A DNA stretch of 64,000 nt from Candidatus Collierbacteria bacterium UBA2277 (GTDB taxonomy: Bacteria; Patescibacteriota; Microgenomatia; UBA1400; MFAQ01), in NCBI GenBank assembly GCA_002347045.1, contig DDWV01000001.1, positions 355,844 through 419,843 on the forward strand, in the 5' to 3' direction. A program made the position numbers and the translations under genes. Under the pieces are notes generated by a model, which was not told the origin of the DNA, ran no database searches, and saw only the letters and a list, made by a program, of their open reading frames with translations. Numbering within the stretch: the stretch's first letter is position 1; each line of letters begins with the position of its first letter. Shown here piece by piece: positions 22,630 to 47,257 of this stretch.

Positions 22630-22638
22630 TAATTCATT

Positions 22639-25269: not shown

Positions 25270-25287
25270 ACGATTTGATTATACTTG

Positions 25288-28237: not shown

Positions 28238-28255
28238 GGTTTGATTATATCCTTT

Positions 28256-28843: not shown

Positions 28844-28867
28844 AAAGATATTTTAGAACAAAAAATC

Positions 28868-29341
28868 TTATTTAACTTCTTTGATACTGTAGGAGATTAT
28901 TCCAGATGGGGCCTCGACCTCTACACTTTCACCGACTTTTTTGCCCATAAGAGCTTTTCCAAGTGGAGATTCGTGACTGATTTTTTTGGCTGCTGGATCT
29001 GCTTCCCATTCACCCACGATTGTGTACTCATGAGCTGAACCATTAACTTCAATGTGGACTAAGCTTCCGATGCTAACTTGCTCCCCACCTTTTTTTGGAA
29101 GATCGACAACTAAGACACGATTAAGAATGTCTTTAAGTTCTTCTGCACGACCCTCAAGGTTTGAGAGAGCTTCTTTGGCAGAGTGATACTCGGCGTTCTC
29201 AGAGAGGTCACCAAAATCACGTGCACGAGAAAGACGCTCGATAGCTTCAGGTCGCTCTGTTTTTTCTAATTGTTCGAGCTCATCAACCAGTTGGCGATAG
29301 CCAAGAGGTGTCATTTGAACTCTTTGATTTTGCTGGTTCAT
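28868..29341 (-). CDS. greA: transcription elongation factor GreA
   Basis: 157 aa. N-terminal coiled coil. C-terminal FKBP-like domain ...ISHESPLGKALMGKKVGESVEV. Confidence 0.9.
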   Translation of the reverse strand: MNQQNQRVQMTPLGYRQLVDELEQLEKTERPEAIERLSRARDFGDLSENAEYHSAKEALSNLEGRAEELKDILNRVLVVDLPKKGGEQVSIGSLVHIEVNGSAHEYTIVGEWEADPAAKKISHESPLGKALMGKKVGESVEVEAPSGIISYSIKEVK

Positions 29342-29588
29342 ATTATCTTAGTTACAAAATATAAATATAAGGCCTGTTTGTCATTTGTCAATGTATCAAA
29401 ACAGGCATTTGGACCAAAAAAATGAATCTGCGGAACTATTTGATGGAATACCGACAGGTTTTCTTTCGTGGCCTAACGTGATGAATTGTACTCTTTTGAA
29501 CCTGAAATGTCAACATGCATAGTGTCTTTATAAGCATGAAGGGAACATGAAGCACGGAAAATTTGGTAGAATATACAGGTTCGACTAT

Positions 29589-29662
29589 GGTCCCGTCGTC
29601 TAGTGGTCTAGGACATTTGGTTCTCATCCAAAAGATCGCGGGTTCGACTCCCGCCGGGATCA
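29589..29662 (+). tRNA. tRNA-Glu (anticodon CTC)
   Basis: Manually folded cloverleaf. Acceptor GGTCCCG/CGGGATC with one G-U pair. D-arm GTC-TAGTGGTCTA-GGAC. Anticodon stem TTTGG/CCAAA with loop TTCTCAT (U33, C34-U35-C36, A37). T-arm GCGGG-TTCGACT-CCCGC. Discriminator A. No encoded CCA. Confidence 0.85.
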
Positions 29663-31441
29663 CAAGTCCGAGTTTATGACCGAGAACTCTCGATCAATAA
29701 AGTCGGATAAAATTGTTTCGGGCAGGTTCAAATAGATGTCAATCGTATTTGGTATCATTTGTCCTTCCTTTTTCTTGCCTGCTATTGAGTCTTCCTTAGT
29801 CTTTGGCCTTGAATGAACAACTACTTGATAAACAAGGTCGTGTATGAGGTCGTACAAAGCCTTCTGATCTGCCACCCTACCTTCTATCACCTCTTTATAT
29901 CTTTCTCTGTACTGATTAAGTCCGAGTTCGTAATCTTCTGATAAATATGATTGACTGATGCTGTAGTCAATTTCCTTTATTTTTTCTTGATACTCGCTGG
30001 CCTTTAGATTAAGTTCGGCTAGTTTCTCTTTTAGGGTATCTGTATCTATTATCATTAGCACAGCATGTTGATCTTGATAACCTTTTTTACGACCTGGTAT
30101 GCCATTGAGGAGGTCTATATAGTGTTGTCGTCTTACTTCCAGATCAGCCAGTACCTCACTTTCAAGTTTCTTTGATCTAAGATTTCTGGAATACTCGTAA
30201 ACATGTCTAGGGTCTTTTAGAAGTTCTTTTACGAACTCAACAACATAGTTTTCAAGAGCTTCGGCTGGAATGGGTATGGTGGGACAGGTCTCACTATTTT
30301 TTGTGTCATTCTTACGATTACATTGATAATAGTAGGAAAACTTGTGGGGTGAGTTTGTGAGTTTCTTCTTTACGCCTGTCCATGTTGAATACTTTTCATT
30401 TTCGTTTACATCTCGTTTGCAATGGTCGCATTTGAGAAGTGAAGACAATAGATAGAGATGGTCGTTTTCTTCTTTCTTTTTATTTAGATTTTTTCTATCC
30501 GCTATTTGCTTTACGTATGTTTGAGAGATTTCAAATATGTGGAGAGGAATAATTGGTTTATGCCTGTAGGGTGAAAGTTTCCAATCTTGCTTGGGTAACA
30601 GCTTTCCATAATGTGATTTGTTGTAGTAGTAGAAACCTGTGTAAATCTCATCGGAGAGAATATCTCTGATCTGACCTGACATCCAAAAGTTGTTAGGATT
30701 GAGTTTGTGAACTTCACCTTTTCGTTTGCCATACTTTACAGCAGATACCTCTGGGCTTAGTATGTTATCTTCTGCTAGTTTGTTAGCGATTATTTGATAG
30801 CTCAATCTATCAAGAACGAACGTCTTGTAAATTCTTTTGACTATTTCTGCCTCTGCTTTCAATATGGCGATTTTGCCTTCTTTGTCTTTGATGTAGCCAT
30901 AAGGCGGATGAGTTCCCATGAACTTACCTTGTGATACAGCCGCCTCCTTACCCTTTGAAGTTCTTTCTTTAATTGTTTCAAGTTCAAGCTCCGCAATGAC
31001 TCCTAATATGCCCAACATGGCTCTTCCAAAAGGTGATGAAGTGTCAATACTTTCGGTAGCAGAAATGAACTCTAGTTTGTGCTTTTTGAATAGGTCGAGA
31101 ACTTCGAGTAAGATTTTTAGCTTACGAGCAAACCTGTCAATTCTGTAAACAGCGATAACATCGAAGGGCAAACCATCTTCTGAGTTGCTTATGTCCTCAA
31201 TGATTCTTGAAAAGGCAGGTCTCTCATTTAGGTTCACCACTCCGCTGACCCCATCGTCTGAGTAAATGTAGTTTTTGTCTGCGAGAACCATAGCTGGACG
31301 ACCATCTTTGAGCAATCCCCTGGACTTGATCGCCGCCTCGATCGTGCTTCTTTGAGCGTCTAAGCCATACTTTTCAACCTGTTCATCAGTTGAGACTCTG
31401 AGGTAGATTGCTACCCTGAGCTGTTTCTCGTCATTATCCAT
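29660..31441 (-). mobile_element. large serine recombinase / integrase CDS (resolvase-like catalytic domain, recombinase domain, zinc ribbon); its stop codon overlaps the 3' end of tRNA-Glu
   Basis: 593 aa. N-terminus VAIYLRVSTDEQ with the catalytic Ser. Large C-terminal extension with a Cys cluster (CDHC...C). TGA stop at 29660-29662 overlaps the last 3 nt of the tRNA. Confidence 0.9.
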
Positions 31442-31651
31442 TTATCTATATTTCTCTAATAAGTTCTCGGTAATCAATCTCTATTTAATCATAATAATTG
31501 TTTTCAGGCTAATTGGTAGAGAATGGGCAGGAACACTACCGAGTGACTGAGGAGAGTACGTGACAAGCCTGCCTGGCTGTTTTTGTGTGTTTTGATGAGT
31601 CATAAAATGCCAAAACCGTGCCTATTTGTTCCTATGTATTAGACCTATAAC

Positions 31652-31680
31652 TTGACAAATGTTGTTTTGTGTGGTATTAT
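31652..31680 (+). promoter_or_regulatory. consensus sigma70-type promoter: TTGACA (31652-31657), 17-nt spacer, TATTAT (31675-31680)
   Basis: Read directly from the sequence. Lies about 55 nt upstream of the AGGAGG SD (31729-31734) and the ATG at 31740. Confidence 0.6.
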
Positions 31681-31739
31681 ATGACAGTTCTTTGAATCAA
31701 CTAATCCGTCCAATTCAGCTCAAACCAAAGGAGGCTATC

Positions 31740-32099
31740 ATGCCTAAGAACGATAAAATGATCGGTTTGTCTCTCTCTCTCTGCGTTTCCCAGATTGCTC
31801 GTGGGGAAGTGAAAGAAGAAGATGTCGAGAAGATCATCGCCGCCACCAATGCCCCCGACCTCGCCACTTTCGAAGAAGTTATCGCCAGCTACTGCGAAAC
31901 CTACTGGCACGACTACCCCGAAAAGGCTCGCGAGATCGCGATGCGTTTCTGGAACAATGGCAATGTTGATCAGCCTCGCACCCGCGGCGAAGATTGCCAC
32001 TATATCGGCGCAGGCAAATGGATGGATCACGAACAAAACACCTTCCACTATGTGGACGGCAAGCGGCAGTATTCAGGCGAGAAGTTACGCGCCTGGTAA
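31740..32099 (+). CDS. hypothetical protein encoded by a compositionally alien (GC-rich) gene
   Basis: I prefer the internal start MPKNDKMIGLS... (120 aa), which has a perfect AGGAGG SD 6 nt upstream; the ORF track begins at 31659. Local GC is ~53% against ~30-37% in the flanks (counted on two 60-nt lines). No family recognised. Confidence 0.5.
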   Translation: MPKNDKMIGLSLSLCVSQIARGEVKEEDVEKIIAATNAPDLATFEEVIASYCETYWHDYPEKAREIAMRFWNNGNVDQPRTRGEDCHYIGAGKWMDHEQNTFHYVDGKRQYSGEKLRAW

Positions 32100-32103
32100 C
32101 CAT

Positions 32104-32149
32104 CCCCCCAAGTAAGGAGAAATCTCCTCGCAAGGGGGGATTTTCTTTT
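32104..32149 (+). terminator. intrinsic terminator: CCCCCC...GGGGGG outer stem with inner GGAGA/TCTCC hairpin, then ATTTTCTTTT
   Basis: Starts 5 nt after the TAA of the GC-rich gene. The T-tract is on the + strand only. Confidence 0.6.
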
Positions 32150-32154
32150 GTCTG

Positions 32155-32586
32155 CTATTGATTGCTATTATTTGTTTTTATCCTTAGCTCACCTTCGAGT
32201 TTTTCTATGTGCTGTTTGAGATCAAGGTTGCCTGTGTTCATCATTTTGGAGTTTCTCTTTTGGGCTTTGTCAATTAAGGCTAGAGAAATAGCTTTGATGG
32301 CGAGATTGATGTACATGGCGATTACACTGGCCGTTTTATTGCTTGTATTATTTGCCCTAACATCATTTATCACCTGTTCAATTAAGTAAACTATATCTTC
32401 GTTGTTTCTGAGAATAATAGGCTCTTGGTCTGCATAACTTCTTTTAAGACTTTTGCCTCCGTTCATTACTGCCTCTAGGTGTTTATCTTTGTGCTTCTCG
32501 GAATGAGAGAAGCAAAACTCGTCATCTTTGACGGCGTAAGCATTACACTGACTGCCGTCTGGTTTGATAAAGTTACATGTTTTCAT
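32155..32586 (-). CDS. hypothetical protein with N-terminal Cys-rich (zinc-ribbon-like) segment
   Basis: 143 aa. C4, C14 and C25 followed by SH, then a charged helical region. Island cargo. Confidence 0.45.
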   Translation of the reverse strand: MKTCNFIKPDGSQCNAYAVKDDEFCFSHSEKHKDKHLEAVMNGGKSLKRSYADQEPIILRNNEDIVYLIEQVINDVRANNTSNKTASVIAMYINLAIKAISLALIDKAQKRNSKMMNTGNLDLKQHIEKLEGELRIKTNNSNQ

Positions 32587-32625
32587 ATTTGTTTGGTTAG
32601 ATAAGCTAGTGGGGTTGTTAATAAC

Positions 32626-32662
32626 AAAAAACCCAGATTATACAACTATGTAGCCTGGGTTA
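32626..32662 (-). terminator. intrinsic terminator on the minus strand (AACCCAG...CTGGGTT stem, then UUUUUUG on minus-strand RNA)
   Basis: Sits between the 32787..33119 gene and the 32155..32586 gene. Confidence 0.5.
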
Positions 32663-32786
32663 TCTCTCTATCGGCAATCGCTTGCCCCTCTTAGTTTCTC
32701 GTTTAATTACTAAGATTCGGATTGTTTAGCAAACAATCAAAAGTAACTTGTTAATAATTTCAGTTTAGCCCATTTATCCAGCTCAA

Positions 32787-33119
32787 TCAAATATCAATCG
32801 ACGGATTTCCATTCTGTTTCTCGATTTTCTTGCCTCTAATTTCCATGTGGATTTTATGTAGAAGTGAAAATCCTAAGTCCATTGTGGACATGAACTTTAC
32901 ACTGAGTTGTTTGACTGGACTCTGAGGAGTATCGAAGTTAATTACTTTTGTGTTAGGGTGTTCGAGAATAGTACCAGGCTTGACAAGCTGTCGTATAACG
33001 TCCTTTAGTAGAGGTAAGTCTTCGATTGATTGTTTTGCTTGTGGAGATTTTGTCCTGTTTGCCATGGCTGATTCTTCCAAGCCCTTTAAGAAGGTTTTCA
33101 ATTTCTCGTTGTCGTTCAT
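32787..33119 (-). CDS. hypothetical protein
   Basis: 110-aa ORF. No motif recognised. Island cargo. Confidence 0.4.
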   Translation of the reverse strand: MNDNEKLKTFLKGLEESAMANRTKSPQAKQSIEDLPLLKDVIRQLVKPGTILEHPNTKVINFDTPQSPVKQLSVKFMSTMDLGFSLLHKIHMEIRGKKIEKQNGNPSIDI

Positions 33120-33249
33120 TCTTACCTATTCTAACAATCTTGCTGTCTATTTGCTTGTGGGTGAATACGAGCATGAACTTATTCGAGTTGTTGAGAGTGA
33201 CTATCTTTTTGTCGGGGAGTTCCTGGTCATAAATGCGATCTGACACTTT

Positions 33250-33840
33250 GTGAATTTTCGCTCTCGTCAGGATACATGCTATCATTTTATGGTGAGACCC
33301 GATAATGACAACCCAAATTTGAATTTCGAAATAATTCAACTTCCAGTATCTGACTGGAGGAAATATAAATCTCTTCGGCTTGAAGCTTTGAAAACCGACC
33401 AACAAGCTTTTGCAAAGACATATGATGATGAAGCTACATATCCTGATGAAAAATGGATAGAAAGAATTGAACGAACTAAAAGTGGAGATGCCTGGATGTA
33501 CTTTGCCAAAGATACGGATACTGATGAGCTTGTAGGGATGATTGGAGGATATAGAGATGAAGAGAACCGAGCAAAGCACTCAGCCCAAATCTGGGGAGTA
33601 TATGTTCACCCTTCTCGTAGAGGAAAGGGATTATCTAGTTTATTAATGAGTAGAATTTTGACTGAGTTTGAGAAAAATGAAGATATTGCAAAAGCTGTAT
33701 TGGAAGTAAATGTAGATCAGCCTTCGGCAATGAAACTTTATGAAAAGTTTGGCTTTTCTGTAATAAATAGATTTACCTGCACACTCGGGGATGGAAAAAA
33801 GCATGAAGTGTGTATTATGGAAAAAGAGTTGAAACGATAA
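33250..33840 (+). CDS. GNAT family N-acetyltransferase
   Basis: 196 aa. Acetyl-CoA pocket motif RRGKGLSSLLMSRIL. Typical GNAT length. The true start may be an internal Met. Confidence 0.75.
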   Translation: MNFRSRQDTCYHFMVRPDNDNPNLNFEIIQLPVSDWRKYKSLRLEALKTDQQAFAKTYDDEATYPDEKWIERIERTKSGDAWMYFAKDTDTDELVGMIGGYRDEENRAKHSAQIWGVYVHPSRRGKGLSSLLMSRILTEFEKNEDIAKAVLEVNVDQPSAMKLYEKFGFSVINRFTCTLGDGKKHEVCIMEKELKR

Positions 33841-33848
33841 TTCTGTTT

Positions 33849-34379
33849 TTATCGGTGATTGGACAAATATTGCGAAAGTTGTCTGATTGGAGATTCAGTA
33901 TTATTTAGATCTTTATATATTACCCCACTTGCATTTGCTTCTTTGAATTTCTTGTTTGCTCTCATATCTGTAGAAAATCCAAATACTTTTCCCGGAAATT
34001 CTTTTTGATTAAGAATCTTTACTAAATCTGACCCCTTAATACCATTTGCCAAATTGTAATCAATTAAAACAGCATCAGGATTTGTTTTAATTAATTCATC
34101 AATTATTTCTTCTATTGTCTGACCTTGATGATAAATGAATGTAGCTTTGCCGTTGGTTTCGACGAGTAATCTTGGAACAAATGTTCCAAAAACAATCTCT
34201 TGATCATCTATCATCGTAATTTTTTTGTCTCTTAGATTTTCTGTACCAACAAGGGGAATTGGTAGAGTGTCTATAAAAGCATATTCTCCCTGAATTGTTT
34301 TTAAAATTGATTTGGCTTCTTTAAATAAATCTTTCTGCTCATCATTTTGGGGGTTTTCAATTATTTCTGAATAGTCCAT
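33849..34379 (-). CDS. CheY-like receiver-domain protein (orphan, N-terminal ~50-aa extension)
   Basis: 176 aa. KKITMIDDQ...(acidic pocket), AVLIDYNLANG (phospho-acceptor Asp position), FSTD (S/T), YKD (Lys). This pattern is consistent with a receiver fold. Confidence 0.45.
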   Translation of the reverse strand: MDYSEIIENPQNDEQKDLFKEAKSILKTIQGEYAFIDTLPIPLVGTENLRDKKITMIDDQEIVFGTFVPRLLVETNGKATFIYHQGQTIEEIIDELIKTNPDAVLIDYNLANGIKGSDLVKILNQKEFPGKVFGFSTDMRANKKFKEANASGVIYKDLNNTESPIRQLSQYLSNHR

Positions 34380-34551
34380 GTTTTTATCATACAGTATTCA
34401 TAATATTTGTTGAACAATTTTCTGCACTGAGATTAATTCACAAACTATTTGGTTCAGGTTTTGTATACTTGGGGTCACCTCAAAGAAGTGGGTTTGGTCA
34501 TCTCACAGATTGATTGAGAAAAATATTTTGTATTTCATTTGGAGATAAATC

Positions 34552-35298
34552 TTATGTTTTTTTATTGAGCCTAATTTCCAAATCTTCTAAAAATCTTGTA
34601 TATAGTTTAGTTTCGGAAACTATATTCCTTGCCGTGAAATCAGGATACAATCTCCATTGATCAAAGTAAGAAGAAAAGTCAAAGAGCGTAGGTTTGTCTC
34701 CCTCAATAATGACGTTGTTTAACTTCCAAAACCTTTTTCCATCAATAATCTTTTCTCGAAGATAAAGATCTGGTGCCCAACCTTCTTGTTTAATTAATCT
34801 GATAACTCCGAAGGCTAATTCAGCAAACTCCCTTTTTGTTTTTGACGAAAGGGTTTCGGTATCAATTAAATCAGCTTCTTTCCCCATCAATCTTGATTGT
34901 CTGATTGTATTTATTAACCCTTTGTCGGTATAGATTCTCTCAAAAGTACTATCAAGAATAAACTTATCAAGATATTCTTTACATAAATTGTACGAAGATA
35001 TTGTCTTCTCTAAATAATTCTCAGTATTGACCTCTTTGAATGCGCCTGAAGGAACTTTAATTATTTCATCTTCGTTAGGTAATGAATATGCTGCCCATTC
35101 CCAACCAGAACCAATTAGCTTTGAACCAGAAATATATGAAAGGCTTTGGGGAGGAGAGGGTCTTTTGTATGCAATACTCTTGAATTGTTTTTCCAATCTA
35201 TTTATTTCAGATGAAAGTTCTGCTTCAGAAGCTCCTCTTGTCAAAAGATCTTCCATAAGCCAATGTTTATTATTTGAAGCCCTTATTGTACGGTTCAT
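34552..35298 (-). CDS. hypothetical protein with protein-kinase-like motifs (RIO/Kdo-kinase/APH-like small kinase fold?)
   Basis: 248 aa. Gly-rich loop-like IGSGWEWAAYSL followed by IIKVP (VAIK-like). DFG-like KPTLFDFSSY. No canonical HRD. Overlaps the HAD gene by 4 nt, which suggests an operon. Confidence 0.4.
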   Translation of the reverse strand: MNRTIRASNNKHWLMEDLLTRGASEAELSSEINRLEKQFKSIAYKRPSPPQSLSYISGSKLIGSGWEWAAYSLPNEDEIIKVPSGAFKEVNTENYLEKTISSYNLCKEYLDKFILDSTFERIYTDKGLINTIRQSRLMGKEADLIDTETLSSKTKREFAELAFGVIRLIKQEGWAPDLYLREKIIDGKRFWKLNNVIIEGDKPTLFDFSSYFDQWRLYPDFTARNIVSETKLYTRFLEDLEIRLNKKT

Positions 35299-35903
35299 AT
35301 CCTTACTGAAACTCCCCTTAATTGCTCTAAGTATATTTCAAATCCTTGAAACAGAAAGGTTGTGATTCCTACAGCTTTTGCACCTGCAAGATTTTCAGAG
35401 TTATCATCGGCAAAAATAATTGATTTAGGATCAACCCCTGACTTATTGACAAGAGCAGTAAAAATCTTCTCGCTTGGTTTACTTTCACCAACTTGAAAGG
35501 AGAAAATTGAAAAATCAAAATCTTTTAAGAAACCAAACTTTTCTTGAAGTCCATTCACTCTTGCCGGAAAATTGTTGGAACAAATAGCAGTTTTATATCC
35601 CACCTCACGAAGTTTTCTAACTGTTGAAACGACATTTTCGTCGACTTCGTATCCATCGATTAGTGTCTTCACTAATTCATGCCATGATGAATCAAGTTTC
35701 CATTCTGAGATAGCCCAAGTCCAAAATTCTTCATCTGTCATTTTTCCATTCTTGTAGTCTTGGTTCATCTGGGGAGACTTCAAGAACACTCTCTTGGCTT
35801 CGTTTTCACTAACACCAAAATTTTCTATGGATTTTATAAAATTCGCTTTTCCGTTGGGAAAATATACTCCGTCAAGGTCGAAAGTGATTACTTTTATGTC
35901 CAT
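35295..35903 (-). CDS. HAD-superfamily hydrolase (subfamily IA-like)
   Basis: 202 aa. Motif I ITFDLDGVYF. Conserved S/T and K motifs. Motif IV FADDNSENL. Confidence 0.8.
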   Translation of the reverse strand: MDIKVITFDLDGVYFPNGKANFIKSIENFGVSENEAKRVFLKSPQMNQDYKNGKMTDEEFWTWAISEWKLDSSWHELVKTLIDGYEVDENVVSTVRKLREVGYKTAICSNNFPARVNGLQEKFGFLKDFDFSIFSFQVGESKPSEKIFTALVNKSGVDPKSIIFADDNSENLAGAKAVGITTFLFQGFEIYLEQLRGVSVRI

Positions 35904-36146
35904 TCTTAATATTTCTCTTTTCTTAAATACTTATATAATTGAAGTATAACAATGTTGTAAGTTTGAAAACAAACAAGACTCGATTATGATCCTCGTTTTA
36001 TAACTGGTTCCTTGGTATTTCACAGCCTTACAGTCTTTTTGTCTGATTGCAACGATAGTTTGTTTTCCAACTATTTAACCGTACGAAATATTGGTTTTAC
36101 CCCTTGTCACAAATTGTTCCGTTTCAGCATACCCAGGATCACATTT

Positions 36147-36581
36147 TTAGTAGGTTTGAGCGCTTGCGGTTGCCATAAATCTACCAATAGAGATCGATTG
36201 AGCTGTTAGAGCACCATTTGTAGTGTTCCCAATTATCATTACTTCTAAACCAACTTTTAAATCATCTGTTGTACCCTCTGAGGTAATATTTATCTTTGTG
36301 TCTCGAGATAAAAGAATAATATTGTTACTACCGTTATTCCCCTGAACAGTAATACTGTTGTCATCTATGCTGATAACATTCCCTTCCATCGGTACTCCGT
36401 TTCGCGAGTTTCCATTTTTTATACTTGTTCCACTCTGAATTGGGACTCCGTTTCCTTGACGACTGGTTAAACTTTGCGGAAAATTTACTTTCTTCGATTT
36501 CTGAAACGTGGTTCCAGCAAAGAAACCAGAAGAAAAAACTAAAACCCCAACGACTATGGAAAGAAATATGTTGTTTTTCAT
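36147..36581 (-). CDS. hypothetical secreted/membrane-anchored Asn/Gly/Ser-rich protein
   Basis: 144 aa. N-terminal hydrophobic segment. Last gene of the TCS-ABC operon on the minus strand. Confidence 0.45.
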   Translation of the reverse strand: MKNNIFLSIVVGVLVFSSGFFAGTTFQKSKKVNFPQSLTSRQGNGVPIQSGTSIKNGNSRNGVPMEGNVISIDDNSITVQGNNGSNNIILLSRDTKINITSEGTTDDLKVGLEVMIIGNTTNGALTAQSISIGRFMATASAQTY

Positions 36582-36621
36582 GAGTGTATTTATATATTGA
36601 TAACCTGATTATTGGCTTAAT

Positions 36622-37884
36622 TTACTCGTACCTTAAGGCTTCAATAGGTTGAAGGCTGGCTGCGCGTCTAGCAGGATACCAACCAAAGAGAATGCCTATG
36701 GCCGCAGAAACAACAAAAGCAAGAATTATGGAGATGGGGGAAATGTAAAAAGTGGACGAATTTATTTTTGAATAAATAAGTGATGCAATTATTCCCAGGA
36801 AGATACCAAGAATACCTCCTATAAAGGTAAGAATTACTGACTCGGTGAGAAATTGGGTGATGATAGTTTTTTTCTTGGCACCAAGGGCTTTCCTTAGACC
36901 AATTTCACGGGTTCTCTCTGTAACAGTAACCAGCATAATATTCATAATGCCAATTCCCCCAACAAGAAGTGAAATGGCAGCAATACCGGTCAAAAGGGAA
37001 GTAAACGTGCCTGTAACTGATGAAGCAGTACTTAAGATATCGTTTTGAGACATGATGGTGAAGTCTGCTTTGGACGGATCGGAAAGATTGTGTCGATCCA
37101 GTAAAAGGAAACCTATTTCATTTCTAGCCTCATCCATTAACTCAGCACTATTTGCCTCGATGGCTATTGAGGAAAGGTGCTTAGCGCCAAAAAGGAGCTT
37201 TTGTGCGGTGGTTAATGGTACATAAACGCAATCGTCTTGACTACCCAAACCAGAGCCACCTTTCGATTTAGTAATGCCAATAATGGTGAAATTTTGCAAT
37301 CCAATTCTTATTGACTGACCTATTGGGTCAACGTTTTCTCCGAACAAATCAACTACCGTTGTTGGGCCGAGAACTGCTACTCTGGCCGTTGAAGATACGT
37401 CTTTGTCTGATATAAAAGCGCCACTTGATAAAGTTACATTGTGGACCGCCATGTAGGTTGAAGTGGCTCCGATGATAGAAGTATTGGTGTTGTTTTTGCC
37501 CGTAACTACCTGTAAACGTCCGGTATATTCTGGTGAAACTGTTTTTACGGTGGTGATTTTTGTTGATGTTTTGATTGCGGTCGCGTCGGCGTTTGTAAGA
37601 GTGGTTCCTCCGCCTGATGTTCGTACCATACCGGAATTTCCGCGCATGGGTGATATGGTTAATAAATTTGAACCAAGAGACTGAATTTGAGAAGTAATTG
37701 ATTGTTGACTTGACTGCCCGAGGGAAACAAGGGCAATGACGGAGCCAATACCGATGACAATGCCGAGAACAGCTAGTCCAGTACGCATTTTGTTAAGCTT
37801 TAAAGTGCCGAAACTTTCTAAAATTTGTTCTGTAAATTGCATGTTATTTTTTGTGTCGAGTTTGGGTGTGATTTTTTGTGTCAC
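36622..37884 (-). CDS. ABC transporter permease, FtsX/MacB-type
   Basis: 420 aa. Paralogous to 17079..18290 (ends ...SLQPIEALRYE). Confidence 0.85.
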   Translation of the reverse strand: MTQKITPKLDTKNNMQFTEQILESFGTLKLNKMRTGLAVLGIVIGIGSVIALVSLGQSSQQSITSQIQSLGSNLLTISPMRGNSGMVRTSGGGTTLTNADATAIKTSTKITTVKTVSPEYTGRLQVVTGKNNTNTSIIGATSTYMAVHNVTLSSGAFISDKDVSSTARVAVLGPTTVVDLFGENVDPIGQSIRIGLQNFTIIGITKSKGGSGLGSQDDCVYVPLTTAQKLLFGAKHLSSIAIEANSAELMDEARNEIGFLLLDRHNLSDPSKADFTIMSQNDILSTASSVTGTFTSLLTGIAAISLLVGGIGIMNIMLVTVTERTREIGLRKALGAKKKTIITQFLTESVILTFIGGILGIFLGIIASLIYSKINSSTFYISPISIILAFVVSAAIGILFGWYPARRAASLQPIEALRYE

Positions 37885-38554
37885 TTACTATTTTTCCGTC
37901 TTTGATCTGGATAATCCTCTTTGCATGTTCTGCAATGTCTAGTTCATGAGTAATCATGACCACAGTGTGCCCCTTGTCGTTTAGATCTTGAAAAATATTC
38001 ATTATCTCTTCAGCTTGAATTGAAGCAATGTTTCCGGTAGGTTCATCCGCGAGAATTAAGGCAGGGTCCATAGCTAGGGATCTAGCTATAGCAACCCGTT
38101 GTTGTTGTCCTCCTGAAATTTGATTACTGGTGTGAAGCATTCGATCCGAAAGACCAACCATTGTAAGAAGTTTTTTTGCTTTTTTCTCTCTTTTTTCCTT
38201 GGACACACTTCCATAAACCATGGGTAACATGACATTTTTTAGACAAGTGGTTCTGGGCAATAGATTGAAAGCCTGAAAAATGAAACCTATTTTCCTGTTT
38301 CTTATATCACTTAATTCGTCATCGTTAAGTTTCTCGACATTTTCTCCGTCGAGAATGTAGATTCCTTTTGTTGGTTTGTCGAGAGCACCTAGAATGTGCA
38401 TAAGAGTTGATTTTCCTGAACCGGAAGGACCCATGATGGCGACAAACTCACCTCTATTTATTTTGAAGGAGACATTATCAAGTGCGGTTGTCTCCAATAT
38501 ATCAGTCTTGTAGATCTTGGAGAGGTTTGTTACCTCGATAATGGCATTAGTCAT
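37844..38554 (-). CDS. ABC transporter ATP-binding protein (MacB/LolD-like)
   Basis: 236 aa. [35 protein letters not shown]. Confidence 0.9.
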
Positions 38555-38557
38555 ATT

Positions 38558-39910
38558 TTAAAATCCTGGACCTCCTGGCATACCACCATTTCTGCTGTTT
38601 CCGGTAAAGAGAGTATTCCCTGAAGAGTTTTTTGAGGTTGTTGAACTTGTTTGAGTTGATGATGTAGCCGTTACTATGACATCTCCCTCCGAAAGACCAG
38701 AGATAATCTCGGTTTGGAAATCGTTTGAAGATCCTGTTTCGATAGCGACATCTGTTGTTTTGTCGTCTTTTAGCACTTGAATGTAAGAACCTGTTGTCGA
38801 TGTTTGTATTGCACTGGAAGAAACAAGCAAAACATCAGTTTTTGTAGAAGTAATTATTGTAGCGTTAACCGCCATATTGGTATAGATATCGATAGACGTT
38901 TTATCTAGAAGAATCGTGGCCGAGTAGGCCGTAACACCCGAGCTGACGCTACCGCTTGTATTAACCGCGAGAACTGTACCGGTGAAACTGCTTTCTGGAA
39001 AAGCGTCTAAAGTAAGAGTAACTTTTTGACCTGATTTTACAGTGGTCACATCAACCTCGGTGAGAGAGACTGTAGCTTGATACTGACCCTCAGGATTTTT
39101 GATGGCACCAATTTTTTGAGAATTAACAGAGACGGAGTTGCTGGTGCTATCGGTGCCTGAACTTACGGTAATTGATGATGTTTGAGTGTTGCCAATTGAG
39201 ACCCCAACTGCTAAAGCAAGGTTGTCAATGATTCCCGAAGCGGGTGCATAAACAGTACTGCTTACTTGTTGGTAACTGCGATAGGCGGCGCTGGCCTTTG
39301 CTTGAGCTAATGAGATGTTGGCGTTGGAGATGGAACTATTGGAGACGGCAGCATCATACCCAGCGATAGCCTCTTCGTATTGTTTGTCTACTATCATGAG
39401 TTCAGTATCGGTATATGGATTGCGAGTGGTAGGATTCCATCCACCTGAATGAGCATCTCTTTTGGCATTTTCAGCCTTTTTGAGAGCATCCTTTTTTTGA
39501 AGAACATTGATGGCGTCAATTTCTTTTTGAGTTTCTACGGTTTTGACATTGACTAGGGCTTTTTGATAGTTGTTCCAGGCAGTTGTTTTGGTTTCTTGTC
39601 CTAAGTCATCAAGGTTTATTTCAGCCAATTTTTGATTCTTTGTGACAACATCACCATTTTTTACAAATACCTTACTAACAGTTCCTGTTGAACCTGTTGT
39701 GATGTAAGTCGTGTCTCCTGAGGTGATGGTGCCAGAAGCTGAGATACTGGTCATCAAGGTTCCTATGGTAACTGTTTCGGTGATATAGGAAACTTTGGAT
39801 GTGTTCCCATAATACTTAGTTCCGAAAAATATTCCAAACCCCAGAAGAAGACTTGGAACGGCGATTTTGACCATAAATGGAAGTTTGGCGATTTTAATTT
39901 TTATTTTCAT
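38558..39910 (-). CDS. HlyD/MacA-family periplasmic adaptor subunit (long, Ser/Thr-rich C-terminal region)
   Basis: 450 aa. N-terminal TM. Coiled-coil segment. Beta-rich C-terminus. Context with the ABC pair. Confidence 0.65.
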   Translation of the reverse strand: MKIKIKIAKLPFMVKIAVPSLLLGFGIFFGTKYYGNTSKVSYITETVTIGTLMTSISASGTITSGDTTYITTGSTGTVSKVFVKNGDVVTKNQKLAEINLDDLGQETKTTAWNNYQKALVNVKTVETQKEIDAINVLQKKDALKKAENAKRDAHSGGWNPTTRNPYTDTELMIVDKQYEEAIAGYDAAVSNSSISNANISLAQAKASAAYRSYQQVSSTVYAPASGIIDNLALAVGVSIGNTQTSSITVSSGTDSTSNSVSVNSQKIGAIKNPEGQYQATVSLTEVDVTTVKSGQKVTLTLDAFPESSFTGTVLAVNTSGSVSSGVTAYSATILLDKTSIDIYTNMAVNATIITSTKTDVLLVSSSAIQTSTTGSYIQVLKDDKTTDVAIETGSSNDFQTEIISGLSEGDVIVTATSSTQTSSTTSKNSSGNTLFTGNSRNGGMPGGPGF

Positions 39911-39940
39911 TTATGCGAGTTTAAGAAAAATATCTGAATA

Positions 39941-40954
39941 CTAGCTGAAGTTTTGAGGGAGAGAAACTGTGAAAGTACTACCCTCTCCCGGACTACTTTT
40001 GACCTTGATGCTGCCATGATGATTTTCGACGATCATTTTGGCGATGGATAAGCCTAGGCCAAAACCTGGGGTTGTCCTTCCAGTACGAGAAGTGTCGGCG
40101 CGATAAAAACGATCAAAAATATAGGGTAAATCTTTTTTACTAATACCTAAACCGTGGTCAGTAACAGAAATGTCGATATTTTTGCCAGACTTGACTGCTT
40201 TTACTTGAATGATTTTGGCTGATGGACTATATTTGATGGCGTTGTCAAGAAGGATATCCAATAGACTGTGCAGTTTTTCTTGGTCACCTTTTATCTTGCA
40301 GTTTTGAATTTTCTTATTGATAATTACTCCCTTGTGTTCGGCCTGTGGTCTTATTTTTTCGATTGAGGAGCCTATTAATTTAGAAAGAGAAATATCTTCG
40401 AGATTAAGAGCTCTTTTTTGTTCTTTATTTTTTGAGAGATTGATAAGCGAATCGGATAAATTTTGAAGCCTGTTTATATCTTCGATATTTTCTTTGATTA
40501 GTTTTTTGGCACCTGGGAGAGTCAAATTTTTATCCATTAGTGCCACTTCCATGGAGGACTTAAGAGAAGTGATAGGAGTACGAATTTCGTGAGATGAGTC
40601 AGAAATGAACCTATCTTGTTCGTCAAGGGCTTCTTTGATAGGTTTAAGTGTTTTGCCAGCTAATAAATAGCCAAAACCTCCGGAAATAACAATGATGATT
40701 CCATTTAAAATAGTTAGGTTGATAAGAATTCTTTTTCCTGTTTCAGCTATTAAGTCCGGATCAATTGTAGGTGGTTTGGGAGGTAAGTGTAACACCGTGG
40801 GAAATTGCCTTTCAATCCGAGTCCTTTGAACTTTTGCAAAGCGGTTTACTTCAGACATTTGGATTCTAAAAATGACACCGCTTAAAGTAAAGCAAACAAT
40901 GGTAATGATAAATAAATACCAAGCAGTAAGTTTTATCCTAGCCTTTTGGAACAT
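39941..40954 (-). CDS. sensor histidine kinase
   Basis: 337 aa. Two TMs. H-box SHEIRTP. N, G1 (DHGLGI) and G2 (GFGLGLSI) boxes. Confidence 0.85.
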   Translation of the reverse strand: MFQKARIKLTAWYLFIITIVCFTLSGVIFRIQMSEVNRFAKVQRTRIERQFPTVLHLPPKPPTIDPDLIAETGKRILINLTILNGIIIVISGGFGYLLAGKTLKPIKEALDEQDRFISDSSHEIRTPITSLKSSMEVALMDKNLTLPGAKKLIKENIEDINRLQNLSDSLINLSKNKEQKRALNLEDISLSKLIGSSIEKIRPQAEHKGVIINKKIQNCKIKGDQEKLHSLLDILLDNAIKYSPSAKIIQVKAVKSGKNIDISVTDHGLGISKKDLPYIFDRFYRADTSRTGRTTPGFGLGLSIAKMIVENHHGSIKVKSSPGEGSTFTVSLPQNFS

Positions 40955-40955
40955 A

Positions 40956-41630
40956 TCAGTTTTCTATTTTGTATCCAAAACCCCTAACTGTTTTTATGAG
41001 GGTTTTTTTATTCTTAAATGGTGTTTCAATTTTTTGTCTGAGTTTTCGAATGAAAACTTCTACAGTGTTGGGAAGAATGTCATCGTCATAATTCCAAACA
41101 TGGCTAGTGATTTGTTCTTTGGAAATAATATTTCCGGTTTGGCGCATTAAGTACTCAAGAAGTGAGTATTCTTTTCCAGATAAATTAATTGAGGCACCAC
41201 CTCTTTTTACCTCGAAATTGATAGTATCCAACGTTAGGTCTGCGACTCTTAACTCTGGGTTGTGACCTCCTGGAGGTCGTCGGGTGAGAGCCCTGACTCT
41301 GGCTAGAAGTTCTTCGAAGGAAAAGGGTTTGGTCAAATAGTCGTCAGCCCCTGAGTCAAGACCGGCGATTTTGTCTTCCAACTGACTTTTGGCCGTAAGA
41401 ATAAGAATAGGCGTGTGGATATTGAGTTGACGAAGCTTTTTGCAAATAGTGATTCCATCCATCCCCGGAAGCATAAGGTCAAGTATCAGACAGTCATACT
41501 CTTCTGTTGAAGCTAAATCAAATCCGTCACGACCATCATAGGCGAGATCGACTGCGAACTTTTCCAATTCAAGACCCTTCTTTATTGAAGTGCCAATACG
41601 GTGTTCATCTTCTACAACTAAGATTCTCAT
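40956..41630 (-). CDS. OmpR-family response regulator
   Basis: 224 aa. Receiver (MRILVVEDE...DLMLPGMDG) plus winged-helix (..TVRGFGYK). Confidence 0.9.
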   Translation of the reverse strand: MRILVVEDEHRIGTSIKKGLELEKFAVDLAYDGRDGFDLASTEEYDCLILDLMLPGMDGITICKKLRQLNIHTPILILTAKSQLEDKIAGLDSGADDYLTKPFSFEELLARVRALTRRPPGGHNPELRVADLTLDTINFEVKRGGASINLSGKEYSLLEYLMRQTGNIISKEQITSHVWNYDDDILPNTVEVFIRKLRQKIETPFKNKKTLIKTVRGFGYKIEN

Positions 41631-41726
41631 GTGGCTAGATTATATCGATTTACTGAATTATTGCTGAATATTAAACATTACCGTTGTTTTGATTGCAGGG
41701 GTACATTATCCAAGCTAGAATTACGT

Positions 41727-42749
41727 ATGACCGAAGAAATAAAAAAGACCTCTCTGGATATATTGAAGGCAATCAAAGGGGCAAAAAATGTTTTACTTCA
41801 TTGCCATCCATACGCAGATCCCGATAGTATTGGATCGGTTTTGGCAATGACAATGGTGCTTAAAAATATGGGTATCAGTGCGACTCCAATATCGGGAGAT
41901 TCTAATTACCCTAGTAACCTTACATCTCTCCCCCAGCACGACTTAATTGTTCCGAAAAACTTTACGCAGATTAATGTTAGCGACTTTGATTTGTTTATTA
42001 TTATGGATAGTTCTTCCCCAAACCAAATAACTAAACTCACTGAGGTGGTATTTCCAAAAAGTTTAAAGACTATCGTGATAGATCACCATGTGTCGAACCA
42101 GAAATATGGTGATATTAACCTAGTTGTGAATGATAGCTCATCAACGTGTGAAGTTTTGTTTAACTTGTTTAAGGAATGGAAGGTTGAAATTGACAAAGAT
42201 ATTGCGATTTGTTTGTTTTTGGGAATATTTTCTGACACTGGCGGATTTAAATACCAAGCAACAACAGCTGACACACTTCTGGCCGCTTCAGAGCTGGCGA
42301 GAATAAATGATGGTTTCCCGGACGTAATTTTTGAGATGGAAAACAGTAGAAATGCCCAAGAAATTGAGTTTACCGGATTGGCTTTGTCATCCTTAAGAAA
42401 ATATTTTTCTGGAAGGGTGGTAATGGCAACGGTACCTTTTTCTGATATTGAAAAACTTGGTATTTCCAAAGAACATACTCAGGTTGGAATTGCCAATATT
42501 TTACTGTCTGTTGTGGGTTGGGATATTGCTATTAGTTTGGTGGAAACAGAGCCAAATGTAGTAACAGTCAGTCTGAGAACTAGGGACTCTGAAAAATATG
42601 ATGTTAGCCTGATAGCCATGGCAGTTGGAAAAGGAGGAGGACACAAAGCGGCAGCGGGAACCTCGATTAATGAATCTTTTGAAAAATCGATTGAGATGCT
42701 CGTAGATACGATTGCCACGACTTTCCCTGAACTGGGGAGTGCAGAGTAG
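41727..42749 (+). CDS. nrnA: DHH-family phosphoesterase (NrnA-like bifunctional oligoribonuclease / pAp phosphatase)
   Basis: DHH motifs (CHPYADPDSIGS, DHH at VIDHHVSN) and DHHA1 (GGGH). Start placed at the internal ATG 41727 (MTEEIKK...), because the ORF-track start at 41631 abuts the divergent response-regulator start. Confidence 0.7.
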   Translation: MTEEIKKTSLDILKAIKGAKNVLLHCHPYADPDSIGSVLAMTMVLKNMGISATPISGDSNYPSNLTSLPQHDLIVPKNFTQINVSDFDLFIIMDSSSPNQITKLTEVVFPKSLKTIVIDHHVSNQKYGDINLVVNDSSSTCEVLFNLFKEWKVEIDKDIAICLFLGIFSDTGGFKYQATTADTLLAASELARINDGFPDVIFEMENSRNAQEIEFTGLALSSLRKYFSGRVVMATVPFSDIEKLGISKEHTQVGIANILLSVVGWDIAISLVETEPNVVTVSLRTRDSEKYDVSLIAMAVGKGGGHKAAAGTSINESFEKSIEMLVDTIATTFPELGSAE

Positions 42750-42781
42750 GTTTTTGTTTGGTGCCATAAAAAATCCCCCCT

Positions 42782-43842: not shown

Positions 43843-43919
43843 AGGTACTGAATTAGTTTAGCAGTCCTTCCAAAACCCCACTAAAAAAGTGGGGTTAGTG
43901 GAGCTATGTATGAGACGTT

Positions 43920-44291: not shown

Positions 44292-44428
44292 ATGTTTTTG
44301 TTTTTTAATTACTAACTACCAGTAATACTTAAATGGGATGGATTTTATTTCAGGCATCTATGTAAAAGACGATATGCTTTACTAAGTGTTATAGTTTCCG
44401 ATACATTATGTTGTATATAATCTAGGCC

Positions 44429-45481: not shown

Positions 45482-45515
45482 AAAATGTTGCATTGGTTTT
45501 TGTTGTGGTAGCGTA

Positions 45516-47192: not shown

Positions 47193-47257
47193 GCCTTATT
47201 ACTTTAGCAAAAAATGCGTCAAAATATAAGATATCTCGGAATATTGTATGATTAGTT

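What the first reader, a model, noticed from the sequence alone, without database searches (positions are those of the whole stretch)
33849..35903. HAD phosphatase - kinase-like - receiver-like module (plus divergent GNAT) as island cargo
Seen in sequence: a HAD-IA hydrolase overlaps by 4 nt a 248-aa protein with a Gly-rich loop/VAIK-like/DFG-like pattern (IGSGWEWAAY...IIKVP...LFDFSSY) but no HRD. Then comes an orphan CheY-like receiver with a 50-aa N-extension, and a GNAT acetyltransferase on the other strand.

A kinase-fold protein paired with a phosphatase and a receiver, inside a mobile island, is not a standard two-component layout. It could be a phospho-signalling or small-molecule-modifying module. 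An APH-like kinase plus a GNAT would suggest antibiotic modification; a toxin/effector kinase with an antagonist is another possibility.
Basis: inference. Interest (0 to 1): 0.55.

Follow-up and report, generated by a model that had tools for sequence, protein, structure and literature searches.

The report
Unannotated minimal kinase paired with phosphatase
The genes are real and the 248-aa protein does have a kinase fold, from a small family that no database names, but the "phosphatase–kinase–receiver–acetyltransferase island module" is three unrelated pieces that sit side by side in one Collierbacteria-like (CPR) genome.

Summary
All four ORFs exist as described. The HAD-IA phosphatase (35295-35903, -) and the 248-aa ORF (34552-35298, -) share an ATGA stop/start overlap.

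The 248-aa protein matches nothing in Pfam, NCBIfam, PADLOC, PHROGs or PDB sequences. An exhaustive HMMER search found about 70 related clusters. With that alignment AlphaFold2 gave pLDDT 94, and the top 50 Foldseek hits in PDB were all kinase-fold proteins (APH(2''), OspG, PknB/G, YopO). HRD is replaced by W-x-P-D177.

The module reading fails. Comparison with sister genomes puts the serine-recombinase island at 29665 to about 33858, from the recombinase to the GNAT, inserted between tRNA-Glu and the receiver's stop codon. The receiver is a syntenic core gene with an intact phospho-acceptor Asp. HAD and kinase lie outside the island.

HAD + kinase recurs once, on one related contig, where no receiver follows. 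Other family members sit beside glycosyltransferases or beside unrelated phosphohydrolases (HD fusion, IMPase, NUDIX, EEP).

Best reading: a two-gene phosphatase plus minimal-kinase cassette acting on an unknown small molecule or glycan. The substrate is inferred only.

The parts
35295..35903 (-). HAD-IA (variant 3) phosphatase, 202 aa, with a C1 cap between motifs I and II. Catalytic motifs D9-x-D11, S109, K142, D166/D167.
   Evidence: Pfam PF00702 2.1e-18 and PF13419 9.6e-14. TIGR01509 50.4 bits, above the 29.4 cutoff. Motif positions. At least 581 clusters at 60-79% identity across CPR lineages.
34552..35298 (-). Minimal protein-kinase-like protein, 248 aa, from an unannotated family. It has an N-terminal helical extension of about 50 aa, then a G-loop (G63-S-G65-W-E-W), K81 on beta3, E89, Q134 at the hinge, W174-x-P176-D177, a beta-hairpin at 181-192, N195, and D207-F-S. 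D213 and R216 are also conserved.
   Evidence: No Pfam, NCBIfam, PADLOC, PHROGs or PDB-sequence match. 73 related clusters found by exhaustive HMMER. Conservation. AF2 model pLDDT 94.1, pTM 0.89. Foldseek top 50 in PDB are all kinase-fold and BFVD hits are mostly annotated protein kinases.
35295..35298 (-). ATGA overlap: the HAD stop codon TGA overlaps the kinase-like start codon ATG (translational coupling).
   Evidence: Sequence read directly. The same 4-nt overlap is kept on L001 (303-911 / 908-1660).
33849..34379 (-). Orphan single-domain receiver (REC), 176 aa, with an N-terminal extension of about 50 aa. It is a core syntenic gene, not cargo. D58/D59, D107 (phospho-acceptor), S136/T137 and K156 are present.
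   Evidence: PF00072 at 24.9 bits, below the 30.2 cutoff. Alignments to solved receivers. Orthologue alignment. Synteny next to tRNA-Glu/GreA in L002-L007. 85% nucleotide identity over 33854-34439.
29665..33858 (.). Integrated island of about 4.2 kb, absent from sister genomes. It holds a large serine recombinase (29660-31441, -), three small ORFs with no family match, and the GNAT. It is inserted between the 3' end of tRNA-Glu and the receiver's stop codon. The receiver's last three codons differ at the junction.
   Evidence: Homology to L002 ends at 29664 and resumes at 33854. Empty-site sequence in L002. Resolvase, Recombinase and Zn_ribbon_recom domains. tRNA-Glu at 29589-29663.
33289..33840 (+). 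GNAT N-acetyltransferase (183 aa from the ATG at 33289; the mechanical ORF starts at 33250). This is the island's cargo and is convergent with the receiver.
   Evidence: PF00583 2.8e-18. Gene call of 183 aa on L008. It lies inside the island.
34440..41781 (.). Second variable segment relative to sister genomes. It holds the HAD + kinase-like pair, a DUF5666-like protein, a MacAB-type ABC exporter with its periplasmic adaptor, and an HK/OmpR-type RR pair. Sister genomes carry a Hanks kinase, a methyltransferase and a DsbD/thioredoxin protein at this position.
   Evidence: blastn breakpoints. Gene tables of L008 and L002. None of the three L002 proteins is encoded anywhere in the window.

Best explanation
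The interval is a junction of three independent units. (a) A 4.2-kb serine-recombinase island carrying a GNAT, integrated next to tRNA-Glu. (b) A core orphan receiver gene. (c) A two-gene cassette in which a capped HAD-IA phosphatase is translationally coupled to a roughly 190-residue minimal protein-kinase-like domain with a 50-aa helical N-extension. That kinase-like protein belongs to a small, unannotated family found mostly in CPR bacteria. It keeps the nucleotide- and Mg-binding residues of an active phosphotransferase: G-loop, beta3 Lys81, Glu89, Asn195 and the DFG-type Asp207. It replaces HRD with an invariant W-x-P-Asp177 followed by a beta-hairpin insertion. Inferred mechanism: it uses ATP or GTP to phosphorylate a small molecule or glycan, not a protein. 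The HAD acts in the same pathway, either removing a phosphate before the kinase adds one at another position (as MupP then AmgK do in MurNAc salvage) or reversing the kinase. What is shown: fold, motifs, gene coupling, island boundaries, and lack of co-occurrence with the receiver. What is inferred: catalytic competence, substrate class, and any pathway link to envelope glycans.
For: Fold: AF2 pLDDT 94.1 with a 69-sequence alignment. The Foldseek PDB top 50 are all kinase-fold, with E about 1e-4 and prob 1.00; OspG scores TMt 0.56. BFVD hits are mostly viral Ser/Thr kinases. 3 of 53 members give weak Kinase-PolyVal hits and 1 gives a weak Pkinase hit. The consensus aligns its G-loop and VxK with SteC (E 0.088). 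Motif conservation. Coupling: the ATGA overlap here and on L001, although the downstream gene differs there. Phosphohydrolase theme: an HD_3/YfbR-like fusion (P0028), IMPase directly upstream (L016), NUDIX directly upstream (L027), EEP overlapping downstream (L017), and TatD overlapping upstream (L011 group). Glycosyltransferase theme: GT2, PMT_2 or GT1 genes adjacent in 6 of about 19 non-redundant locus groups. The capped C1-type HAD is the small-molecule type (established knowledge of HAD cap classes). Island boundaries and core status of the receiver. Precedent for a HAD phosphatase working with a kinase-fold sugar kinase: MupP/AmgK (PMC5371407).
Against: TM-scores to solved kinases are low (0.34-0.42 normalised to the query), and no sequence method reaches significance. 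Family placement inside the superfamily is therefore open. The Asp177-to-Asn195 spacing is 18 instead of 5, and I could not inspect the model's coordinates, so the role of Asp177 as catalytic base is unverified. The protein could be an ATPase or a pseudokinase. The HAD-kinase pairing is seen in only two related genomes. HAD orthologues elsewhere have other neighbours and no kinase-like gene, and most kinase-family members have no HAD. The neighbour themes were tallied by eye, without a background rate or phylogenetic correction, and glycosyltransferases are common in CPR genomes. No glycosyltransferase lies next to the pair in this window.
Confidence: 0.6

Rival explanations
1. The 248-aa protein is a protein kinase or a regulatory ATPase, in the manner of the minimal kinases OspG/NleH, RIO or Bud32. 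The HAD is its antagonist phosphatase or is unrelated. The neighbouring receiver could be a target.
For: The best compact structural match is the minimal effector kinase OspG (TMt 0.56). PknB, PknG, YopO and many viral Ser/Thr kinases score like APH. Weak Kinase-PolyVal and Pkinase hits. In sister genomes the receiver's neighbour at the same position is a Hanks kinase.
Against: There is no activation segment, APE motif or GHI subdomain; only about 40 residues follow the DFG Asp. The HAD has a C1 cap, which fits small substrates. The receiver and the kinase-like gene never co-occur elsewhere. 172 nt separate them, and the 60 nt just upstream of the receiver are conserved with genomes that lack the kinase-like gene.
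Confidence: 0.2
2. The kinase-like family works on nucleotides or nucleic-acid ends: nucleoside or nucleotide salvage, or 5'-kinase/3'-phosphatase end healing as in PNKP, whose phosphatase is a HAD. The HAD would then be a nucleotidase.
For: Fusion to a YfbR-like 5'-deoxynucleotidase HD domain, with a dNK gene three genes downstream in the same cluster. Neighbours include NUDIX, TatD DNase, EEP, a 5'-3' exonuclease and RarA/MgsA. The HAD gives sub-threshold matches to pyrimidine 5'-nucleotidase, YjjG and GMP/IMP nucleotidase models.
Against: Those HAD matches are far below their cutoffs (37.6 bits against 142.9, and similar) and are matched or exceeded by sugar-phosphatase models (glucose-1-phosphatase 49.1 bits). 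PNKP-type HADs are capless, and this one is capped. No neighbour is conserved across the family.
Confidence: 0.15
3. One reading: a phosphatase-kinase-receiver(-GNAT) signalling or antibiotic-modifying module carried as cargo of a mobile island.
For: The four genes lie within 2.7 kb next to a serine recombinase and a tRNA. GC content is lower here than the window mean of 0.396: REC 0.31, kinase-like 0.34, HAD 0.36.
Against: The island ends at the receiver's stop codon, and the receiver is syntenic in genomes without the island. The three genes do not co-occur anywhere else. There is no APH or AAC membership and no defence-system match.
Confidence: 0.04

Closest known systems
OspG/NleH-type minimal effector kinases (PDB 4bvu_A)
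   Same: A compact kinase core of about 170-200 residues with G-loop, beta3 Lys and DFG Asp, and without the substrate-binding GHI subdomain. It is the best size-normalised structural match (TMt 0.56, E 2.4e-4).
   Different: 16% identity and no sequence-level relationship. Here HRD is replaced by WxPD plus a 13-residue hairpin, and there is a 50-aa helical N-extension. The family is not a secreted effector and occurs in housekeeping contexts of CPR genomes.
Aminoglycoside 2''-phosphotransferases APH(2'')-IVa/Ia (APH family, PF01636)
   Same: Top Foldseek E-values (about 1e-4). Small-molecule kinases of the same superfamily.
   Different: TM is only about 0.35. There is no PF01636 hit, no HxDxxxxN (Brenner) motif, and no C-terminal helical substrate-binding subdomain. 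The protein is about 50 residues shorter, or about 100 if the N-extension is discounted.
Kinase-PolyVal (PF18762), the minimal kinase of polyvalent phage/conjugative-element proteins
   Same: The only Pfam family hit by more than one family member (3/53, best E 9e-4). The match covers the N-lobe.
   Different: All scores are below the gathering threshold (15 bits against 27). The window protein itself does not hit. No member was found in viral contigs or phage genomes.
MupP (HAD phosphatase) + AmgK (kinase-fold anomeric sugar kinase) of MurNAc recycling
   Same: A HAD-family phosphatase and a kinase-fold small-molecule kinase acting one after the other, so that a phosphate is moved from one sugar position to another to feed cell-wall synthesis (PMC5371407). 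This is a working analogy for the cassette.
   Different: No homology to AmgK was shown. No MurU-like nucleotidyltransferase is adjacent. The substrate here is unknown.
LPS core kinases WaaP/KdkA (Kdo family, PF06293); comparison from my own knowledge
   Same: Kinase-fold enzymes of about 235-265 aa, encoded among glycosyltransferase genes, that phosphorylate sugars of a nascent envelope glycolipid. Several members of this family sit inside GT2/GT1/PMT_2 clusters.
   Different: No PF06293 hit at E <= 1 for any of the 53 members. CPR bacteria have no LPS. These structures were not among the top 50 Foldseek hits.

Membership tests
Protein-kinase-like (PKL) superfamily | Bilobal kinase fold: N-lobe beta-sheet plus helix C, and a C-lobe with helix E, catalytic loop and DFG strands | tested here: met
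   AF2 pLDDT 94.1; element order b1-b2-b3-aC-b4-b5-aE-loop-b-b-DFG. The top 50 PDB hits are all kinase-fold at prob 0.99-1.00 and BFVD hits are mostly annotated kinases, but TM is only 0.34-0.56.
Protein-kinase-like (PKL) superfamily | Gly-rich loop, beta3 Lys and Mg-binding DFG Asp | tested here: met
   G63/G65 (G65 53/53), K81 52/53, D207 53/53; N195 48/53 lies 12 residues before D207, as in canonical kinases.
Protein-kinase-like (PKL) superfamily | Catalytic-loop Asp (HRD / HxD) five residues before the Asn | tested here: inconclusive
   No HRD or HxD. The conserved W174-x-P176-D177 (D 51/53) lies 18 residues before N195, with a hairpin in between. I could not read the model's coordinates to check the geometry.
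Hanks-type Ser/Thr/Tyr protein kinases (PF00069) | Pfam model match; HRDLKxxN, an activation segment ending in APE, and the GHI subdomain | tested here: not met
   No hit for the window protein. 1/53 members hit at E 0.066. hhalign against the Hanks kinase of L002 gave probability 0.5%. Only about 40 residues follow the DFG Asp.
APH / choline-kinase-like phosphotransferases (PF01636) | Pfam model match; Brenner motif HxDxxxxN; C-terminal helical substrate-binding subdomain | tested here: not met
   No PF01636 hit in any of 53 members. hhalign against an APH-family protein from L032 gave probability 0.2%. The motif is absent.
Kinase-PolyVal (PF18762) | Score at or above the gathering threshold of 27 bits | tested here: not met
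   Best member E 9e-4; P0019 scores 15.4 bits; the window protein has no hit.
HAD superfamily, subfamily IA | Motifs I (DxDG[T/V]), II (S/T), III (K) and IV (DD), with a C1 cap between motifs I and II; model above cutoff | tested here: met
   D9/D11, S109, K142, D166/D167. PF00702 67.9 bits against 26.4. TIGR01509 50.4 bits against 29.4. No equivalog-level model is reached, so the substrate is undefined.
Response-regulator receiver domain (PF00072) | Acidic pair, phospho-acceptor Asp, Ser/Thr and Lys; model above cutoff | tested here: inconclusive
   The residues D58/D59, D107, S136/T137 and K156 are present, and D59, D107, S136 and K156 are invariant in the orthologues (D58 is Glu in P0006, T137 is Ile in P0006). 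The Pfam score of 24.9 bits is below the 30.2 cutoff. The precomputed annotations of P0003 and P0004 list PF00072.
Two-component system (cognate HK-RR pair) | Adjacent histidine kinase; output domain on the regulator | tested here: not met
   The receiver has no output domain. Its neighbours are the kinase-like gene and the GNAT here, and a Hanks kinase and tRNA-Glu in sister genomes. The nearest HK/RR pair (39941-41630) is a separate OmpR-type pair.
Genomic-island cargo | The gene lies between the island's junctions, as defined by an empty site in related genomes | tested here: not met
   Island is 29665 to about 33858. The GNAT is inside. The receiver, kinase-like gene and HAD are outside.
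Aminoglycoside acetyltransferase (AAC) / antibiotic-modifying GNAT | NCBIfam AAC model at or above its cutoff | tested here: not met
   AAC models score about 13-22 bits against cutoffs of 140-450. The best match is RimI at 43.8 bits against 86.4.
Known anti-phage defence or toxin-antitoxin kinase systems | Match to PADLOC models; conserved partner gene | tested here: not met
   No PADLOC hit for the HAD, the kinase-like protein or the receiver. The partner gene is not conserved across the family.

The most novel reading that the evidence does not exclude
The WxPD minimal-kinase family is a new, mostly CPR-restricted enzyme that pairs with interchangeable, non-homologous phosphohydrolases (HAD, HD, IMPase, NUDIX, EEP). 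Together they would run a phosphorylation/dephosphorylation step in salvage or decoration of envelope-glycan precursors. Alternatively, like SelO or SidJ, its rearranged catalytic loop may carry out a non-kinase reaction such as AMPylation or another nucleotidyl or acyl transfer.
Probability: 0.2. Interest if true: 0.65.

Novelty: new variant of a known kind. Interest (0 to 1): 0.4.

Why it matters
CPR bacteria have tiny genomes full of unannotated genes and depend on salvage. This work gives a fold and a candidate active site to a family that all sources currently label "hypothetical protein". Its repeated pairing with different phosphohydrolases and with glycosyltransferases provides testable leads on how these organisms process scavenged sugars or nucleotides. 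Atypical kinase-fold families have also repeatedly turned out to catalyse unexpected reactions. The result corrects a plausible but wrong "island module" reading as well: the precise island boundaries show a serine-recombinase element inserted between a tRNA and the stop codon of a core gene.

Tried and rejected
1. Pfam, NCBIfam, PADLOC and PHROGs scans of the 248-aa protein found nothing.
2. PDB sequence searches gave only chance-level hits. I tried the single protein, the 53-sequence profile and the family consensus. The hits were a superoxide dismutase "GSGWxWAAY" match at E 0.048 and the SteC G-loop at E 0.088.
3. A Pfam scan of the family consensus found nothing relevant.
4. AF2 with only two sequences gave pLDDT 39.9, which is unusable. 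I repeated it with 69 sequences.
5. hhalign of the family profile against a Hanks kinase and an APH-like protein taken from fetched loci gave no signal.
6. The word-indexed homologue search found only 2 relatives. The exhaustive search was needed.
7. The search for related loci with the 53-sequence alignment failed because the alignment was too divergent. It worked with the 9 closest sequences.
8. I looked for a direct repeat of the tRNA 3' end to mark att sites and found none. The boundaries were set by comparison with the empty site instead.
9. The terminator scan between the genes found none, and promoter-like sites were at background frequency.
10. I tested whether the 248-aa protein derives from the Hanks kinase that occupies the same position in sister genomes. 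There is no similarity, and that kinase is not encoded in the window.
11. I tested whether HAD orthologues elsewhere are followed by cryptic kinase-like genes. None was found.
12. The N-terminal 180 aa of the fusion protein P0015 has no Pfam or PDB match.
Full report
**1. What is in the sequence**

The interval holds three minus-strand ORFs:
- a 202-aa protein at 35295-35903;
- a 248-aa protein at 34552-35298;
- a 176-aa protein at 33849-34379.

A plus-strand GNAT ends at 33840, 8 nt from the stop codon of the 176-aa gene. The two are therefore convergent.

The first two ORFs overlap by ATGA at 35295-35298. A gap of 172 nt separates the 248-aa gene from the 176-aa gene.

The source is a Collierbacteria-like (CPR) genome. 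Identical proteins lie on contigs of 640-647 kb, and the closest named relatives are Candidatus Collierbacteria.

**2. The easy genes**

- **HAD.** The 202-aa protein is a HAD-IA phosphatase. It scores PF00702 at 2.1e-18 and TIGR01509 above its cutoff. Its motifs are D9xD11, S109, K142 and D166/D167, with a cap between motifs I and II. No equivalog-level model is reached, so its substrate is undefined. It is highly conserved, with at least 581 clusters at 60-79% identity across Woese-, Gottesman-, Collier- and Nealsonbacteria.
- **GNAT.** The match is solid (PF00583, 66.7 bits) but it is not an AAC. The best NCBIfam match is RimI, below its cutoff.
- **Receiver.** The 176-aa protein is a single-domain receiver with an N-terminal extension of about 50 aa. 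It scores just under the Pfam threshold (24.9 bits against 30.2). Its D58/D59, D107, S136/T137 and K156 align with the catalytic residues of several solved receivers, and D59, D107, S136 and K156 are invariant in the orthologues.

**3. The 248-aa protein**

It matches nothing in Pfam, NCBIfam, PADLOC or PHROGs, and gives only chance-level matches to PDB sequences. The word-indexed search of 5.8 billion proteins found only itself and one 63%-identical relative.

The exhaustive HMMER search of 1.84 billion representatives found 73 clusters. Most are 230-255 aa. Every member for which a source gives a name is called "hypothetical protein".

In a 53-sequence alignment the following residues are invariant or nearly so: G65, W66, E67, K81, F87, E89, Y95, Y103, F119, Q134, W174, P176, D177, N195, D207, D213 and R216.

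AlphaFold2 gave pLDDT 40 with two sequences and pLDDT 94.1, pTM 0.89 with 69 sequences. The order of secondary-structure elements is:
- N-terminal helices;
- beta1, G-loop, beta2, then beta3 carrying K81;
- a long helix C, then beta4 and beta5 ending at Q134;
- helix E, then W-x-P-D177;
- a beta-hairpin at 181-192;
- N195, two strands and D207;
- one final helix.

In Foldseek against PDB, all top 50 hits were kinase-fold proteins. They were mostly APH(2'')-IVa/Ia structures, with OspG, PknG, PknB, PknS, YopO and a reconstructed ancestral Src/Abl tyrosine kinase. E-values were about 1e-4 and probability 0.99-1.00. TM-scores were low (0.34-0.42), with the best size-normalised match to OspG at TMt 0.56. 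BFVD returned mainly viral Ser/Thr kinases, plus some nidovirus polyprotein segments and unnamed proteins.

Weak sequence echoes agree with this. Three of 53 members hit Kinase-PolyVal and one hits Pkinase. The family consensus aligns its G-loop and VxK with SteC (E 0.088, not significant).

I conclude with high confidence that this is a minimal kinase-like domain from an unannotated family.
- The nucleotide- and Mg-binding residues are present.
- HRD is absent. The only conserved acidic candidate in that region is D177, which lies 18 residues before N195 instead of 5. I could not check its geometry.
- No activation segment or GHI subdomain follows the DFG Asp.

**4. Is it a module, and is it island cargo?**

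It is neither.

The receiver's 87%-identical orthologues (P0004) lie on many contigs in one fixed arrangement: DHH, DsbD/thioredoxin, methyltransferase, Hanks kinase (divergent), receiver, tRNA-Glu, GreA, SerRS and onward to SecA.

blastn of the window against such a locus (L002) shows the following:
- Homology runs from 21863 to 29664, ending exactly at the 3' end of tRNA-Glu.
- It resumes at 33854-34439, which is the receiver plus 60 nt upstream, at 85% identity.
- It resumes again only at 41782, in the DHH gene.

In L002 the tRNA end and the receiver's stop codon are about 12 nt apart.

The mobile island is therefore 29665 to about 33858. It holds a large serine recombinase, three small ORFs with no family match, and the GNAT. 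It was inserted at the very end of the receiver gene, whose last three codons differ at the junction.

The receiver is a core gene. The HAD and the kinase-like gene lie on its other side, in a second variable segment (34440-41781). That segment also carries a DUF5666-like protein, a MacAB-type exporter and an HK/RR pair. In the sister genomes the same position holds the Hanks kinase, methyltransferase and DsbD genes.

The HAD + kinase-like pair recurs once. On L001 the HAD is 74% identical (P0096), the kinase-like protein is 63% identical, and the same 4-nt overlap is kept. The gene that follows there is unrelated, with no Pfam match, rather than a receiver.

HAD orthologues elsewhere sit next to a KAP NTPase and an EcoRI R-M system, next to an unknown 143-aa ORF, or inside a suf operon. 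No kinase-like gene is nearby.

**5. What the rest of the family says**

I looked at about 19 non-redundant locus groups from GTDB genomes, metagenomes and direct look-ups. No single neighbour is conserved. Two themes recur.

*Non-homologous phosphohydrolases fused to or touching the gene:*
- HAD-IA (window and L001);
- an N-terminal HD_3/YfbR-like domain fused in P0028;
- IMPase directly upstream (L016);
- NUDIX directly upstream (L027);
- EEP overlapping downstream (L017);
- TatD overlapping upstream (L011 group).

*Glycosyltransferases, in 6 of the ~19 groups:*
- a 502-aa membrane GT2 directly downstream in the L011 group and in L044, separated by an EEP gene in L017;
- PMT_2 and GT1 flanking the gene in L032 and L034/35;
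- GT2 in L037;
- GT1 in L038.

Other neighbours are RarA/SDR, SulP, FtsH with a 5'-3' exonuclease, a SpoIID-domain protein, spermidine synthase, and a Mur ligase with MurL.

These are tallies without a background rate, so they are leads, not tests. The family is absent from viral contigs and phage genomes.

**6. Mechanism proposed**

*Shown:*
- a capped HAD phosphatase, of the small-molecule type, is translationally coupled to a minimal kinase-fold protein;
- that protein carries intact ATP/Mg-binding residues.

*Inferred:*
- the pair acts on one small molecule or glycan precursor;
- either the phosphatase acts first and the kinase then phosphorylates another position, or the two oppose each other.

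The first order of events is what MupP then AmgK do in MurNAc recycling (PMC5371407).

Rivals are a protein kinase or ATPase role (OspG/RIO-like) and a nucleotide or nucleic-acid role. The second is suggested by the HD nucleotidase fusion and by dNK, NUDIX, TatD and exonuclease neighbours. I cannot separate these with the tools at hand.

**7. Comparison with known families, and novelty**

The protein belongs to the kinase-like superfamily by fold and by core motifs. It fails every family-level test I ran: Pkinase, APH and Kinase-PolyVal directly, and no PF06293 or RIO hit appears.

It is best described as a new variant: a minimal core with WxPD in place of HRD, a hairpin inserted into the catalytic loop, and a helical N-extension.

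The "module" itself is not a real feature. It is a juxtaposition created by an island insertion on one side of a core gene and a segment replacement on the other.

**8. Verdict**

- The kinase-fold guess is right.
- The island-module, antibiotic-modification and toxin readings are not supported.
- Interest is moderate (0.4). It rests on the unannotated kinase family, not on the locus architecture.

Noticed in passing
window 8627-8710 (-), upstream of the 1036-aa ORF at 5489-8599 (-): Match to the c-di-GMP-II riboswitch (RF01786), just above its gathering score (54.9 bits against 53.5). It sits in the 5' leader of a large gene. A c-di-GMP riboswitch would be notable in a ~0.64-Mb CPR genome.
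   Followed up: no
L002-L007, 5585-7849 (-) next to 8001-8522 (+); the window equivalent would lie upstream of 34439: In sister Collierbacteria genomes the orphan receiver is divergently paired with a 754-aa canonical Hanks kinase (GxGxxG, AAK, HRDLKPEN, DFG). That kinase, its methyltransferase and its DsbD neighbours are not encoded anywhere in this 64-kb window. A receiver next to a Ser/Thr kinase may be a real signalling pair that this genome has lost or moved.
   Followed up: partly
window 29660-29663 and 33849-33860: The serine recombinase's stop codon overlaps the last 4 nt of tRNA-Glu. At the other junction the island changes the receiver's C-terminus from ...QYFS* to ...QYLSNHR*. The insertion site is therefore a roughly 12-nt spacer between a tRNA and a gene end. 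No att repeat was detectable.
   Followed up: partly
window 31659-32161: A stretch of about 500 nt inside the island has GC 0.50 against the window mean of 0.40. It is open in several frames on both strands. The ORF called there (119-146 aa) has no family match.
   Followed up: no
window 42750-50621: A further block of about 8 kb is absent from the sister-genome locus. Homology to L002 jumps from 42736 to 50622, and GC is low at 44-49 kb (0.34-0.37). This looks like a third variable region close to the first two.
   Followed up: no
L048 1625-6681: A 76%-identical orthologue of the HAD sits between a KAP-family NTPase and an EcoRI restriction-modification pair. This very conserved HAD therefore turns up in variable or defence-type regions as well as in a suf operon (L052).
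   Followed up: no
L014 1900-2997 (-): A fused Sua5/YrdC-TsaE protein (t6A synthesis) lies two genes from a member of the kinase-like family. Bud32, the kinase-fold ATPase of the archaeal/eukaryotic t6A machinery, makes this worth a look, but it is a single case.
   Followed up: no
L011 and L014 (record titles 'uncultured Gammaproteobacteria'), L013 ('Weeksellaceae'): These contigs carry CPR-like gene content, for example PMT_2/GT2 clusters and close relatives of Shapirobacteria proteins. The taxonomic labels of these MAGs may be wrong, which affects any statement about the family's host range.
   Followed up: no
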